Of a DNA stretch of 64,000 nucleotides, positions 17,714 to 30,667 are shown piece by piece. Numbering within the stretch: the first letter of the stretch is position 1; each line of letters opens with the position of its first letter. Made by a program: the position numbers and the translations under genes. The stretch lies in contig PCWT01000051.1 in assembly GCA_002796245.1 (NCBI GenBank), positions 71,954-135,953 on the forward strand, read 5' to 3'. The notes beneath the pieces were generated by a model. It did no database searches. It had not been told where the DNA came from and saw only the letters and a program-made list of their open reading frames with translations. The DNA is from Gammaproteobacteria bacterium CG11_big_fil_rev_8_21_14_0_20_46_22. Lineage in GTDB: Bacteria; Pseudomonadota; Gammaproteobacteria; UBA12402.

Positions 17714-19111
17714 ATGTTCGATAATTTAAGCCAACGCTTAAACCAGACCGTCAAATCCCTCACTGGCCGTGGCCGTTTAACCGAAGATAATATCAAAGAT
17801 GCCTTGCGCGAAGTGCGCGTTTCACTCATCGAGGCCGATGTCGCCCTACCGGTGGCCAAAGACTTTATCGAACGTGTTAAAGAAAAAGCCTTAGGCGAAA
17901 AGGTGATGCAAAGCCTCACCCCGGGCCAGGCGCTGATCAAAGTTGTTAATGACGAACTGACTGAACTCATGGGTGGCACGCAGGCTGACATTAATTTCAA
18001 CGCCGCCCCACCTGTCGTCATCCTCATGGCCGGCCTTCAAGGTTCGGGTAAAACGACCACATCCGCCAAGCTCGGTCGTTTTTTGAAAAATCAGTATAAA
18101 AAATCCGTGCTAGTCACGAGCGCGGATATCTACCGCCCTGCGGCGATCAAACAGCTCGAAACGCTCGCGAATGATTTAGACCTGCATTTTGAGCCCAGCG
18201 AAACCAGCGAAAAGCCTTTGAAGATTGCTGAGCGCGCCATCGCGCGCGCTAAACGCGAACAAATCGATGTGGTGATTGTCGATACAGCCGGTCGCCTGCA
18301 TATCGATCACGACATGATGGATGAAATCAAAACGCTGCATAAAGCCATCAAACCCACGGAAACCTTGTTCGTGGTCGATAGCATGACAGGTCAGGACGCG
18401 GCCAACACGGCTAAAGCCTTTAACGACGCCTTAGAAATCACCGGCGTGGTGCTCACCAAAATTGATGGCGATGCTAGAGGCGGTGCTGCTTTGTCTGTGC
18501 GTCAAATCACAGGCAAACCGATTAAATTCATCGGTACCGGTGAAAAAACCGACGCCTTTGAAGTGTTCCACCCCGATCGTATTACCTCTCGCCTTTTAGG
18601 CATGGGTGACGTGCTCTCTTTAATCGAAGAAGCCGAACAGAAAATCGATAAAGACAAAGCGCAAAAAGCCGCGAAGAAATTTAAAAAAGGTAAAACCTTT
18701 GACCTGCAAGATTTCTTAGAACAGATGGAACAAATGGAAAAAATGGGCTCCATGAGCTCGCTGATCAGCAAACTGCCCGGCATTCCTAACATTGACCCTG
18801 AGCTAGTCAAACAACAACTCAGCGATAAAAAGTTCGCGCGCATGCGTGCCATTGTGCATTCCATGACACCCAAAGAGCGTCGCTTTCCGGATGTGATCAA
18901 CGGTTCACGTAAAAAACGCATCGCCACGGGTTCCGGCACGGAGGTGCAAGACGTTAACCGCTTGCTGAAGCAATTTTCTCAAATGCAAAAAATGATGAAA
19001 AAGCTCAGTAAAAAAGGCGGCGCCATGAAAATGATGCGCCAGATGCAAGGCATGATGGGGCAAGGTGGCGGCATGCCACCGATGGGCGGCGGCGGTTTTC
19101 CGTTTTCATGA
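17714..19111 (+). CDS. ffh: signal recognition particle protein Ffh
   Basis: MFDNLSQRL start; GTPase motifs GLQGSGKTTT, DTAGR and TKIDGDARGG; Met-rich M domain; C-terminal GGGGFPFS. The upstream in-frame ATG at 17654 is probably not used. Confidence 0.9.
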   Translation: MFDNLSQRLNQTVKSLTGRGRLTEDNIKDALREVRVSLIEADVALPVAKDFIERVKEKALGEKVMQSLTPGQALIKVVNDELTELMGGTQADINFNAAPPVVILMAGLQGSGKTTTSAKLGRFLKNQYKKSVLVTSADIYRPAAIKQLETLANDLDLHFEPSETSEKPLKIAERAIARAKREQIDVVIVDTAGRLHIDHDMMDEIKTLHKAIKPTETLFVVDSMTGQDAANTAKAFNDALEITGVVLTKIDGDARGGAALSVRQITGKPIKFIGTGEKTDAFEVFHPDRITSRLLGMGDVLSLIEEAEQKIDKDKAQKAAKKFKKGKTFDLQDFLEQMEQMEKMGSMSSLISKLPGIPNIDPELVKQQLSDKKFARMRAIVHSMTPKERRFPDVINGSRKKRIATGSGTEVQDVNRLLKQFSQMQKMMKKLSKKGGAMKMMRQMQGMMGQGGGMPPMGGGGFPFS

Positions 19112-19113
19112 TC

Positions 19114-19257
19114 GAAACCCGGGTTATCGCTTCGCTCAACCCAGACTGCATTTTATCGCTAACGTCATTGCGAGCGAACGTCAGTGAGCGCGGCAATCTT
19201 TTGAATCAACCTGGAGATTGCTTCGTCGCTACGCTCCTCGCAAAGACGGTTGCTACC
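19114..19257. repeat. ~140-bp REP/MITE-like repeat (left copy), directly after the ffh stop
   Basis: Near-identical inverted copy at 30154..30285. Its outer end (AAACCCGGGTTATCGCTTCGCTCA...) belongs to a short element also found at 30291 and 44797. Confidence 0.75.
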
Positions 19258-19403
19258 CAAGATTGCCCCCTAACTTTTTTTGTTAAGCTCTTCGCGATAA
19301 ACATAAAGAGATCTTCTACTCAATTAATGCTAATCAATCAAACACGGGGGTGCATTTTCTTTTCTGGATACCCTAGCCCATTTAAAAATAAGATTTTTCC
19401 ACT

Positions 19404-30153: not shown

Positions 30154-30285
30154 GGTAGCAACCGTCTTTGCGAGGAGCGAAGCGACGCGGCAATCTCCAG
30201 GTTAATTCAAAAGATTGCCGCGCTCATTGACGTTAGCGATAAAAAGTAGCCTGGATTGAACGCCGAAGGCGTGATAATCCGGGAG
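30154..30285. repeat. inverted copy of the 19114..19257 repeat
   Basis: The reverse complement of 19120..19257 matches 30154..30285 at roughly 85-90% identity, with one ~12-nt indel. Confidence 0.75.
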
Positions 30286-30290
30286 AAATC

Positions 30291-30342
30291 AAACCCGGAT
30301 TATCGCTTCGCTCACTCCAGGCTACCCAAGACGATTGCTACT
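30291..30342. repeat. short dispersed repeat element (AAACCCGGATTATCGCTTCGCTCACTCCAGGCTACCCAAGACGATTGCTACT)
   Basis: Forms an 11-bp perfect hairpin with the end of the preceding inverted copy (GATAATCCGGG/CCCGGATTATC); related copies at 19114 and 44797. Confidence 0.65.
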
Positions 30343-30667
30343 TATCACTATCATTGTCTTGCTTGCCAGACACTGTGTTGGAAAACGCGTGCCAGCCTTG
30401 CTTGAAGCCCTCACCCACGCGTTTGGCGTGAGTTTTGGTCCACTGCCAGCCGGTTTTACTCGCCTCACTCGTGTTTTCACCCACGGTCTTGGCCTTTTCT
30501 TTGGTCCAATCCCAAGAATACGAGAATGGGTTTTGCTGAGCTGGCTGCTCGGTGATAACCGGTGCACTTTGTGCTGAAGTCGGCGCTTGCGCTGCATCCT
30601 TTGGCGCAGCAGCCACCGCAACAGACGCAGCCAACGCCAACGTAAAAATAAGCATCCATGGTTTCAT
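30338..30667 (-). CDS. small secreted protein with tandem Trp-rich repeats (SWDWTKEKAKTVGE / GWQWTKTHAKRVGE)
   Basis: 109 aa; signal peptide MKPWMLIFTLALAASVAVAAA; internal ~20-aa duplication. Confidence 0.5.
   Translation of the reverse strand: MKPWMLIFTLALAASVAVAAAPKDAAQAPTSAQSAPVITEQPAQQNPFSYSWDWTKEKAKTVGENTSEASKTGWQWTKTHAKRVGEGFKQGWHAFSNTVSGKQDNDSDK

What the first reader, a model, noticed from the sequence alone, without database searches (positions are those of the whole stretch)
19084..30345. Single-gene 11-kb island at the ffh 3' end: giant ORF bracketed by inverted repeats and a duplicated ffh terminus
- ffh ends ...GGC GGC GGC GGT TTT CCG TTT TCA TGA at 19084-19113.
- Just past the stop of the 3566-aa ORF, 30124-30150 reads GGC GGC AGC GGG TTT CCG TTT TCG TAA. 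This is a degenerate copy of the ffh terminus with its stop codon, and the homology extends upstream (CAGGTGGCGGCA vs CAAGGTGGCGGCA).
- Between these direct repeats lie a ~140-bp element (19114-19257), the giant gene, and an inverted copy of the same element (30154-30285).
- The giant gene is visibly AT-richer than ffh and the other housekeeping genes.
- This is the attL/attR architecture left when an integrative element inserts into the 3' end of a gene and restores it from its own attP. The rpsP-rimM-trmD-rplS genes that usually follow ffh are not here.
- Despite this architecture, no integrase remains; the entire cargo is one enormous gene.
Basis: partly seen in the sequence, partly recalled or inferred. 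Interest (0 to 1): 0.85.

Follow-up and report, generated by a model that had tools for sequence, protein, structure and literature searches.

The report
Giant-gene island inserted at ffh end
An 11-kb stretch of foreign-looking DNA holding one 3566-residue gene sits just after the essential gene ffh and is bounded by two copies of ffh's last 27 bases, the scar of an old site-specific insertion that no longer has its own integrase; this is a modest curiosity, not a new kind of element.

Summary
The direct repeat is real. The last 27 nt of ffh (19085-19111) recur at 30127-30153 with 23/27 identity, starting 22 nt after the giant ORF's stop. Three of the four differences are silent, and no other Ffh among 80 compared loci ends in FPFS. 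The giant gene has the lowest GC3 of 43 window genes (0.36 against about 0.51).

The inverted repeats are not island ends. They are copies of a dispersed ~140-nt MITE/REP-like element, with at least 20 more copies in related contigs, that usually lies just downstream of genes.

No integrase is present and there is no room for one. No empty site was found: every population contig is occupied, and the closest genome shares no downstream synteny.

The strongest new evidence is independent. One of the two closest homologues (P0002, 32% identity) also lies in an ~11.1-kb island, bounded by a 67-nt direct repeat of the 3' half of tRNA-Pro, again without an integrase. Three other homologues with readable flanks have no such bracket, and every context differs.

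Best reading: a decayed or trans-mobilised (CIME-like) integrative island whose cargo is a giant DUF3638-type SF2-like ATPase. This is a new member of a known kind.

The parts
17714..19111 (+). ffh (signal recognition particle protein Ffh, 465 aa), intact; the target gene
   Evidence: Translation. Exact protein found on 13 contigs, with precomputed SRP54_N/SRP54/SRP_SPB Pfam hits.
19085..19111 (+). Left direct-repeat copy (attL-like): last 8 codons of ffh plus the TGA stop
   Evidence: (D10).
19115..19257 (+). MITE/REP-like element, copy A (head hairpin plus long hairpin); not island-specific
   Evidence: RNA fold -50.5 kcal/mol, z = -2.8.
19258..19403 (+). Unique 146-nt leader upstream of the giant gene; no sigma-70 consensus match
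19404..30104 (+). Giant gene, 3566 aa, GC3 0.36; the sole cargo. DUF3638-type SF2-like ATPase protein with conserved N-terminal His/Cys motifs
19821..19904 (+). Conserved LPGH...TTGAGL block (aa 140-167; GNTGAG in homologues); candidate catalytic His region (inference)
   Evidence: Invariant P/G/H in alignments A3 and A4.
20502..20531 (+). ITPQFSGNCW motif (aa 367-376), invariant in P0001, P0002, P0003 and P0006; candidate Cys-protease nucleophile (inference)
25674..27599 (+). SF2-like ATPase core: TGDGKST (aa 2091-2097), FADEIDRL (2217-2224), QAIGRMRR (2725-2732)
   Evidence: DUF3638 is above the Pfam cutoff in homologues. Foldseek hits are dominated by SF2 helicases, on a pLDDT-62 model.
30105..30126 (+). 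22-nt spacer between the giant-gene stop (TAG, 30102-30104) and the right repeat
30127..30153 (+). Right direct-repeat copy (attR-like): displaced ffh terminus GGSGFPFS plus the TAA stop, 23/27 identical to 19085-19111
30154..30288 (-). MITE/REP-like element, copy B, tail abutting the displaced ffh stop codon
   Evidence: (I1, I2).
30291..30345 (+). MITE/REP-like element, copy C (short form: head plus tail), ending at the stop of the convergent gene 30338-30667
   Evidence: (D2).

Best explanation
The 11,042-nt segment between the two ffh-terminus copies is the remnant of a Campbell-type, most likely integrase-catalysed, insertion of foreign DNA into the 3' end of ffh.

Inferred course of events:
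- The incoming DNA carried its own short copy of the ffh terminus (attP).
- Recombination within about 27 nt (longest shared core TTTCCGTTTTC) left ffh intact with a replaced tail, ...GGGGFPFS*.
- The previous tail, ...GGSGFPFS*, together with the MITE that followed it, was pushed 11 kb downstream.
- All that is left inside is one giant gene, whose low GC3 marks it as acquired.
- The recombinase is gone. Either it was lost by decay, or it was never on this unit, which would make it a cis-mobilizable (CIME-like) island served by an integrase encoded elsewhere.
- The flanking inverted repeats are unrelated. They are copies of a genome-wide MITE that habitually sits just downstream of stop codons. 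Copy A probably inserted after the island arrived.
- The cargo is a DUF3638-family giant protein: an SF2-like ATPase core, N-terminal His/Cys motifs suggesting a cysteine protease, and a hydrophobic Gly/Ala-rich C-terminus. It has relatives in a few gammaproteobacterial MAGs and in eukaryotes, and is plausibly a host-interaction factor.

Shown: the repeat, its position, the composition, the MITE family, the absence of an integrase, and the parallel tRNA-Pro island.
Inferred: the integrase mechanism, which repeat copy is the original, and the protein's function.
For: - The repeat is 23/27 identical and unique in the window.
- Both copies end in a stop codon in the same register. Three of the four differences are silent or stop-to-stop.
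- The FPFS terminus is lineage-specific: 0 of 80 other Ffh proteins have it.
- The right copy starts 22 nt after the giant ORF's stop.
- GC3 of the giant gene is 0.361, the lowest of 43 genes and uniform along the gene. The GC profile dips exactly over the segment.
- The repeat is not part of the MITE: 17 other MITE tails have unrelated flanks.
- Independent parallel: homologue P0002 lies in an 11,144-nt-spaced island bounded by a 67-nt direct repeat. The repeat is 49/49 identical over the tRNA-Pro(GGG) 3' half, and this island also has no integrase.
- The five family contexts with readable flanks all have different neighbours. The sixth contig, L103, holds the gene alone.
- The joins are reproduced in independent assemblies.
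- The CIME definition fits (PMC5704250).
Against: - No integrase or remnant lies in the island or in any scanned window ORF.
- No empty site was found. All 13, 9 and 11 contigs carrying ffh, the giant gene and the downstream gene respectively are occupied.
- The closest genome, L006 (74% Ffh identity), shares no downstream synteny.
- The repeat is short and only 85% identical.
- ffh is not a reported attB in the searched literature.
- None of 27 other ffh loci with downstream insertions shows a duplicated ffh end.
- Three homologues (L102, L104, L105) have no flanking repeat.
- MITE-A lies inside the island, so it needs either a later insertion or a closely related donor.
Confidence: 0.6

Rival explanations
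1. Insertion without an integrase. The giant gene arrived, or moved within the genome, by illegitimate or microhomology-mediated recombination, or by a replication-slippage type rearrangement. That event duplicated about 27 nt of the ffh end as a by-product, possibly helped by the neighbouring MITE hairpins.
For: - No integrase is present.
- MITEs abut both ffh termini.
- The repeat is short and degenerate.
- No other ffh locus shows att-like duplication.
Against: - The mostly silent differences and the preserved stop register suggest that both copies once served as coding ends; a decaying duplicate would not show this.
- The two MITEs contact the termini by different ends, head against tail, so they do not share one junction.
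- The homologous gene in L004 has a textbook tRNA 3'-half direct repeat, which points to site-specific integration for this gene family.
Confidence: 0.2
2. No island. The giant gene is native, or anciently resident, and the 27-nt similarity is a chance match driven by Gly codons.
For: - The first 12 nt of the repeat are Gly or Ser codons, which is low complexity.
- Several other window genes also have lowish GC3, 0.39-0.42.
- The giant gene is fixed in the population.
Against: - The longest exact run is the non-Gly part, TTTCCGTTTTC.
- 0 of 100 window shuffles and 0 of 5000 flank shuffles reach the match.
- The position is exactly at the gene end.
- The stop codon is in the same register.
- The FPFS terminus is unique among 80 Ffh proteins.
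Confidence: 0.08
3. Assembly artefact. The giant-gene unitig was wrongly joined between ffh and the downstream genes through the repeated MITEs.
For: - The short-read unitig L005 ends in the MITE arms on both sides, and L003 ends in MITE-A.
- The MITE is multi-copy.
Against: - The ffh-terminus copy lies on the giant-gene unitig itself (L005), upstream of the MITE.
- The JGI contigs L002 (ffh into the giant gene) and L101 (giant gene into the downstream genes), the NCBI MAG and contigs up to 145 kb all give the same joins.
Confidence: 0.03
4. Self-mobile giant gene. The giant protein itself supplies the recombination or mobilisation activity, so the single gene plus its att site is an autonomous element.
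For: - Two homologues sit in ~11-kb islands bounded by direct repeats that contain essentially only the giant gene and no integrase.
- The protein has an SF2-like ATPase core and conserved His/Cys motifs of unknown role.
Against: - No recombinase, transposase or HUH domain was detected with Pfam, NCBIfam, PHROGs, PADLOC or PDB sequence searches.
- The two islands use different targets and opposite gene orientation relative to the target.
- Three other homologues have no repeats.
- The family also occurs in eukaryotes as ordinary giant proteins.
Confidence: 0.04

Closest known systems
Cis-mobilizable elements (CIMEs) and decayed genomic islands derived from ICEs/IMEs
   Same: - Bounded by attL/attR-like direct repeats that include the 3' end of a conserved target gene.
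- The target gene is kept intact.
- There are no integration or transfer genes inside.
- The cargo is of foreign composition.
(Definition: PMC5704250.)
   Different: - The target is ffh, which was not found as an att site in the searched literature.
- The cargo is a single 10.7-kb gene.
- No cognate ICE/IME or integrase is known.
- Mobilisation has not been shown.
- The repeat is only 23/27 identical.
tRNA/tmRNA- and gene-3'-end-targeting tyrosine-integrase islands (P4-like integrase islands; ICEs that integrate in the 3' ends of protein-coding genes)
   Same: - The architecture is intact target, then island, then displaced 3' fragment.
- The L004 homologue shows the classic tRNA 3'-half repeat: 49/49 nt from the anticodon-arm region to the 3' end.
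   Different: - The defining integrase gene is absent in both islands.
- There are no excisionase, conjugation or phage genes. One 51-aa ORF in L004 looks vaguely HTH-like, but no family hit supports this.
REP/MITE-type intergenic palindromic repeats
   Same: - The 'inverted repeats' are ~140-nt, hairpin-forming, multi-copy and intergenic.
- They mostly lie within 100 nt of gene 3' ends.
   Different: - They are not island termini.
- They have a modular head and long hairpin, with short forms.
- They match no Rfam family.
- The transposase or mobilising enzyme is unknown.
DUF3638/DUF3645 giant P-loop proteins (mostly eukaryotic, about 3000 aa)
   Same: - Similar length.
- The Walker A motif lies at about residue 1800-2200.
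- DUF3638 is above the Pfam cutoff in homologues P0004, P0005, P0006 and P0013.
- HMMER links the window protein to them with E = 1e-18 to 1e-27.
   Different: - The window protein itself does not reach the Pfam cutoff.
- It is a bacterial (gammaproteobacterial MAG) lineage.
- It has an extra ~390-aa hydrophobic C-terminal extension.
- Its function is unknown in any organism, as far as I could find.

Membership tests
Integrase-mediated integrative island (attL/attR at a gene 3' end) | Direct repeats at both ends that duplicate the 3' end of the target gene | tested here: met
   19085-19111 against 30127-30153: 23/27 identical, unique in the window, and beyond the shuffles.
Integrase-mediated integrative island (attL/attR at a gene 3' end) | The target gene remains intact after insertion | tested here: met
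   ffh is a full 465-aa ORF with SRP54_N/SRP54/SRP_SPB domains.
Integrase-mediated integrative island (attL/attR at a gene 3' end) | A tyrosine or serine recombinase gene inside the element | tested here: not met
   Only 292 nt and 22 nt of non-coding DNA lie beside the giant ORF. The giant protein has no recombinase hit in Pfam, NCBIfam, PHROGs, PADLOC or PDB. None was found in neighbouring ORFs either.
Integrase-mediated integrative island (attL/attR at a gene 3' end) | Composition differs from that of the host genome | tested here: met
   GC is 0.38-0.42 against 0.48-0.51. GC3 is 0.361, the lowest of 43 genes.
Integrase-mediated integrative island (attL/attR at a gene 3' end) | Presence/absence polymorphism, or an empty site in relatives | tested here: inconclusive
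   All population contigs are occupied. The closest genome, L006, has no downstream synteny.
Integrase-mediated integrative island (attL/attR at a gene 3' end) | Excision to a circular form with an attP junction | not testable with these tools
   This needs raw reads or an experiment.
CIME (cis-mobilizable element) | Retains attL and attR but lacks integration and transfer genes | tested here: met
   The repeats are present and there are no such genes (same calls as above). Definition from PMC5704250.
CIME (cis-mobilizable element) | Derived from, and mobilisable by, an ICE/IME with the same att specificity | not testable with these tools
   The whole genome is not available. No ffh-targeting element was found in 80 ffh loci or in the literature.
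Composite element bounded by inverted MITEs/IS | The inverted terminal copies define the mobile unit, with a short target-site duplication outside them | tested here: not met
   The MITE is dispersed as single copies with unrelated flanks. The displaced ffh end lies inside the inverted pair. The sequences outside the two heads do not match.
DUF3638/DUF3645 giant P-loop protein family | A match to Pfam DUF3638 above the gathering score | tested here: inconclusive
   The window protein has only a weak DEAD hit at E = 0.04, and P0002 scores 23 bits, below the cutoff. Homologues P0004, P0005, P0006 and P0013 are above the cutoff and are linked to the window protein by HMMER at E = 5e-27 to 5e-18.
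Papain-like / clan CE-type cysteine protease (N-terminal domain) | A catalytic His and Cys (with Gln) in a protease fold | tested here: inconclusive
   The PGH and PQFSGNCW motifs are invariant in four distant homologues. However, the AF2 model has pLDDT 48, which is unusable, and no Pfam or PDB sequence hit was found. The resemblance rests on my memory of Ulp1-type motifs.

The most novel reading that the evidence does not exclude
The giant DUF3638-type gene may be a self-contained mobile unit: a single ~10-kb gene plus an att site that inserts into the 3' ends of conserved genes (ffh here, tRNA-Pro in L004). The giant protein itself would then provide or recruit the recombination activity, so no integrase would be needed.
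Probability: 0.04. Interest if true: 0.9.

Novelty: new member of a known kind. Interest (0 to 1): 0.42.

Why it matters
- It adds ffh to the list of conserved genes whose 3' ends serve as landing sites for integrative DNA.
- It shows, in two unrelated genomes, that a rare giant eukaryote-related ATPase gene travels as essentially the only cargo of an integrase-less island bounded by att-like repeats.
- This gives a concrete handle for asking how very large accessory genes spread in uncultivated, probably host-associated Gammaproteobacteria: an empty-site sequence and a circle junction that can be sought in reads.
- It also illustrates that flanking inverted repeats can be coincidental MITEs and not island ends.

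Tried and rejected
- **Inverted repeats as island termini.** Rejected. The metagenome scan found the MITE tail in 15 other stretches with unrelated flanks.
- **ffh remnant as part of the MITE consensus.** Rejected. No other copy carries it.
- **Empty site.** Not found.
  - The ffh, giant-gene and downstream-gene look-ups returned occupied contigs only.
  - Two look-ups were wasted on wrong minus-strand coordinates.
- **Related genomes.**
  - 80 ffh loci were fetched. Only L006 is close (74%) and it is not syntenic downstream.
  - None of 27 loci with insertions after ffh shows a duplicated ffh end.
- **More homologues by word-indexed search.**
  - The alignment query returned nothing.
  - The P0002 query returned only itself.
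  - The exhaustive HMMER search worked.
- **Viral contigs.** No relative found.
- **Synteny between L004 and L105.** Rejected. The ~500-aa neighbouring genes are not homologous.
- **Separate origin for the GC-richer 3' end of the giant gene.** Rejected. GC3 stays at 0.38, so the rise comes from amino-acid composition.
- **Structure of the N-terminal His/Cys region.** The model has pLDDT 48, so no fold search was run.
- **ATPase core model.** pLDDT is 62. The Foldseek hits are SF2 helicases but with low TM-scores, so they serve only as weak support.
- **Rfam.** Only the two tRNAs were found.
- **Literature on ffh as attB.** Only an ffs (4.5S RNA) phage site turned up.
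Full report
**Source and layout.** The window is part of contig PCUS01000002.1 of MAG GCA_002787725.1, named by NCBI 'Gammaproteobacteria bacterium CG11_big_fil_rev...'. ffh is 17714-19111 (465 aa, stop TGA at 19109-19111). 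It lies divergent from a CNNM/CorC gene, as in many Gammaproteobacteria. A 3566-aa ORF occupies 19404-30104. Downstream, on the minus strand, lie a small secreted protein (30338-30667), an AIR-synthase-related gene, an ORFan, a POT transporter and yajQ.

**Checking the direct repeat.** The last 27 nt of ffh are GGCGGCGGCGGTTTTCCGTTTTCATGA (19085-19111). They recur as GGCGGCAGCGGGTTTCCGTTTTCGTAA at 30127-30153, with 23/27 identity and 11,042 nt between starts.
- The match is the only one with 3 or fewer mismatches in the window, and 100 shuffles gave none.
- It is the best local match to the ffh end anywhere in the window. blastn-short gives E = 0.003 over 45 kb, and 0 of 5000 shuffles of the 300-nt flank reach its score.
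- Both copies end in a stop codon in the same register.
- Three of the four differences are silent: GGT/GGG, TCA/TCG and TGA/TAA. The fourth changes Gly to Ser. With only four differences this is suggestive at best (my estimate p about 0.07).
- The encoded end, GFPFS*, is lineage-specific. None of 80 other gammaproteobacterial Ffh proteins ends that way, and the closest, L006, ends GGLPF*.
- The upstream 'extension' (GGTGGCGGCA) needs an 18-nt gap inside a Gly-codon run, so I give it little weight.

**Checking the inverted repeats.** The arms 19174-19257 and 30154-30237 are 93% complementary. Gapped alignment extends the elements to 19115-19257 (+) and 30154-30288 (-). A third, shortened copy (head plus tail) lies at 30291-30345 (+), and a head fragment at 44797-44835.

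A scan of JGI metagenome contigs for the 23-nt tail found 15 further stretches. They lie on contigs of similar GC (0.45-0.50), mostly from one sample series. BLAST then found at least 18 additional copies at 82-97% identity.
- The copies share a sharp tail boundary (...GGTTGCTAC) followed by unrelated sequence. None is followed by the ffh-like segment.
- They are intergenic, and most lie within 100 nt of a gene's 3' end.
- Copy A folds into a long hairpin (-50.5 kcal/mol, z = -2.8).
- No Rfam family matches.

The 'bracketing inverted repeats' are therefore ordinary members of a dispersed MITE/REP-like family, and the displaced ffh terminus is not part of that element. The inverted pair does explain why short-read unitigs break on both sides of the giant gene (L005, L003).

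**Composition.**
- GC falls from 0.48-0.51 to 0.38-0.42 across the giant gene.
- Its GC3 is 0.361, the lowest of 43 window genes (range of the others 0.39-0.62). It stays at 0.33-0.38 in every full 1.5-kb chunk.
- The rise in total GC over the last ~900 nt comes from an Ala/Gly/Ser/Pro-rich sequence, because GC3 there is still 0.38.

**Integrase and empty site.** Inside the repeats there are only 292 nt (143 of them MITE-A) before the giant ORF and 22 nt after it.
- The giant protein has no recombinase, transposase or HUH hit in Pfam, NCBIfam, PHROGs or PADLOC.
- It has none in PDB sequence or profile searches covering residues 1-1600, 1599-3050 and 3040-3566.
- No integrase or transposase domain was found in the other window ORFs scanned (36 of the 47 ORFs of at least 150 aa) or in the precomputed annotations of the flanks.
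- Every contig carrying the exact Ffh (13 contigs), the giant protein (9) or the downstream AIRS-like protein (11) shows the same occupied arrangement.
- The closest genome available, L006 (74% Ffh identity; all others about 65%), shares the upstream CNNM gene but nothing downstream.
- rpsP follows ffh within 600 nt in 53 of the 80 loci. It is absent within 10 kb in L006 too, so the broken ffh-rpsP linkage predates or is independent of this insertion.
- None of 27 ffh loci with insertions or no rpsP downstream shows a duplicated ffh end. The same method recovers the window's repeat.
- ffh was not found as an attB in the searchable literature.

**Independent parallel in L004.** The word-indexed protein search found only one homologue, P0002 (3241 aa). 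It is 32% identical over residues 1599-3177 and weaker over the N-terminal two-thirds. In its contig (L004) the gene at 10001-19726 is bounded by a 67-nt direct repeat, 8793-8859 and 19937-20003, with 11,144 nt spacing and 61/67 identity.
- The right copy lies in an intact tRNA-Pro(GGG) gene (19955-20031, minus strand).
- The left copy is a 49/49-identical fragment of the tRNA's 3' half plus 18 nt of similar flank.
- This is the textbook scar of integration into a tRNA 3' end.
- That island also has no integrase. It holds the giant gene plus 1.1 kb with three small ORFs that have no family hits.
- There the island's GC (0.378) equals that of its flanks. This is also about the GC of the window's giant gene, so the window copy plausibly came from a lower-GC donor.

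**The rest of the gene family.** An exhaustive HMMER search with the ATPase core found 57 proteins. With their contigs fetched:
- P0003 (L102), P0005 (L104) and P0006 (L105) have no convincing flanking repeats or tRNAs.
- The neighbours differ in all five contexts with readable flanks. L103 holds the gene alone. An apparent similarity between the L004 and L105 neighbourhoods is not homology.
- So two of the five contexts with readable flanks are att-bracketed single-gene islands, at different targets and with opposite gene orientation relative to the target.

**The cargo protein.** The conserved core carries SF2-type motifs: TGDGKST (aa 2091-2097), FADEIDRL (2217-2224) and QAIGRMRR (2725-2732).
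- Homologues P0004, P0005, P0006 and P0013 hit Pfam DUF3638 above the cutoff, and P0013 also hits DEAD and DUF3645 weakly.
- The window protein itself stays below cutoffs.
- Weaker relatives are about 3000 aa, and one of them is from the eukaryote Paulinella.
- An AF2 model of aa 2040-2830 is mediocre (pLDDT 62). Its Foldseek hits are dominated by SF2 helicases (RIG-I/MDA5, Dicer, Rad54, UAP56, RecQ, Brr2, UvrB, Mfd), with low TM-scores. This is weak support.
- N-terminally, PGH (aa 141-143), a GNTGAG-like block and ITPQFSGNCW (aa 367-376) are invariant across P0001, P0002, P0003 and P0006.
- The His...Gln-x4-Cys order recalls Ulp1/clan-CE cysteine proteases. That is my recollection and not a test. 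The AF2 model of this region is unusable (pLDDT 48), and there is no Pfam or PDB sequence hit.
- The window protein alone has a ~390-aa C-terminal extension with Gly/Ala-rich hydrophobic stretches.
- A host-interaction (effector-like) role is an inference from these features and from the eukaryotic relatives.

**Interpretation.** The most economical account is a Campbell-type insertion into the ffh 3' end.
- The incoming DNA carried a short ffh-like attP that restored the reading frame.
- The former terminus and the MITE that followed it (copy B, whose tail abuts the old TAA) were displaced 11 kb.
- MITE-A, 3 nt after the present stop codon, most likely inserted later. This fits the family's habit of sitting just after stop codons.
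- Two homologues being the near-sole cargo of integrase-less att-bracketed islands hints at trans-mobilisation and not two independent clean decays. This is not shown.

Rival explanations:
- A non-integrase rearrangement that duplicated the ffh end (about 0.2).
- A chance match with a native gene (about 0.08).
- Mis-assembly through the MITEs (about 0.03). This is countered by the ffh copy lying on the giant-gene unitig and by concordant independent assemblies.
- A self-mobile giant gene (about 0.04).

**Verdict.** The integration interpretation is the best-supported one but is unproven. The feature is a new member of a known kind (a decayed or cis-mobilizable integrative island) with an unreported target (ffh) and an unusual single giant-gene cargo. 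Interest is moderate.

Noticed in passing
window 19115-19257, 30154-30288, 30291-30345, 44797-44835; L086-L100: A modular ~140-nt MITE/REP-like repeat family: a head hairpin plus a long hairpin ending ...GGTTGCTAC. It has at least 20 copies in related contigs, including tandem and short forms. Copies are intergenic and mostly lie just downstream of stop codons. No Rfam match.
   Followed up: partly
window 13563-16274, 31744-33273, 38065-39231, 46462-48258, 54749-56773: Several sizeable ORFs (179-674 aa) have no Pfam domain, and some have low GC3 (0.39-0.42). They are scattered among housekeeping genes and could be further acquired or effector-like genes.
   Followed up: no
window 30338-30667 (-): A 109-aa protein with a signal-peptide-like N-terminus and an internal 66-nt repeat (30411-30448 / 30477-30514) encoding a W-x-W-T-K-x-x-A-K-like motif. 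No Pfam hit.
   Followed up: no
window 46000-57000: A lower-GC stretch (0.41-0.45) around tRNA-Ala and tRNA-Glu (48643-48821). It contains a DUF155 gene at GC 0.38 and a cluster of RimK-like ATP-grasp, GCS2, C39-like peptidase and FGase genes. It was not examined for island boundaries.
   Followed up: no
L004 8793-20031: An ~11.1-kb island bounded by a tRNA-Pro(GGG) 3'-half direct repeat (49/49 nt). It carries the homologous giant gene and three small ORFs (51, 77 and 118 aa). The 51-aa ORF looks faintly HTH/AlpA-like by eye but has no family hit. A GNAT pseudogene fragment lies just outside the left repeat.
   Followed up: partly
L105 (GCA_013558375.1, contig JACCDG011026256.1): The homologue P0006 lies on a bacterial-looking contig of an assembly whose contig numbering suggests millions of contigs. 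This may be a bacterial symbiont or contaminant within a eukaryote genome project.
   Followed up: no
L006 11400-11560 and 13301-15923: In the closest relative, ffh is followed by a different REP-like palindromic element and, further on, by two adjacent 388-aa paralogous ORFs, possibly transposases. This shows that the region downstream of ffh is rearranged in that lineage too.
   Followed up: no
window 43263-43907 and 44846-45364: Two neighbouring cytidylyltransferase-like (CTP_transf_like) paralogues are separated by a region that contains the MITE head fragment.
   Followed up: no
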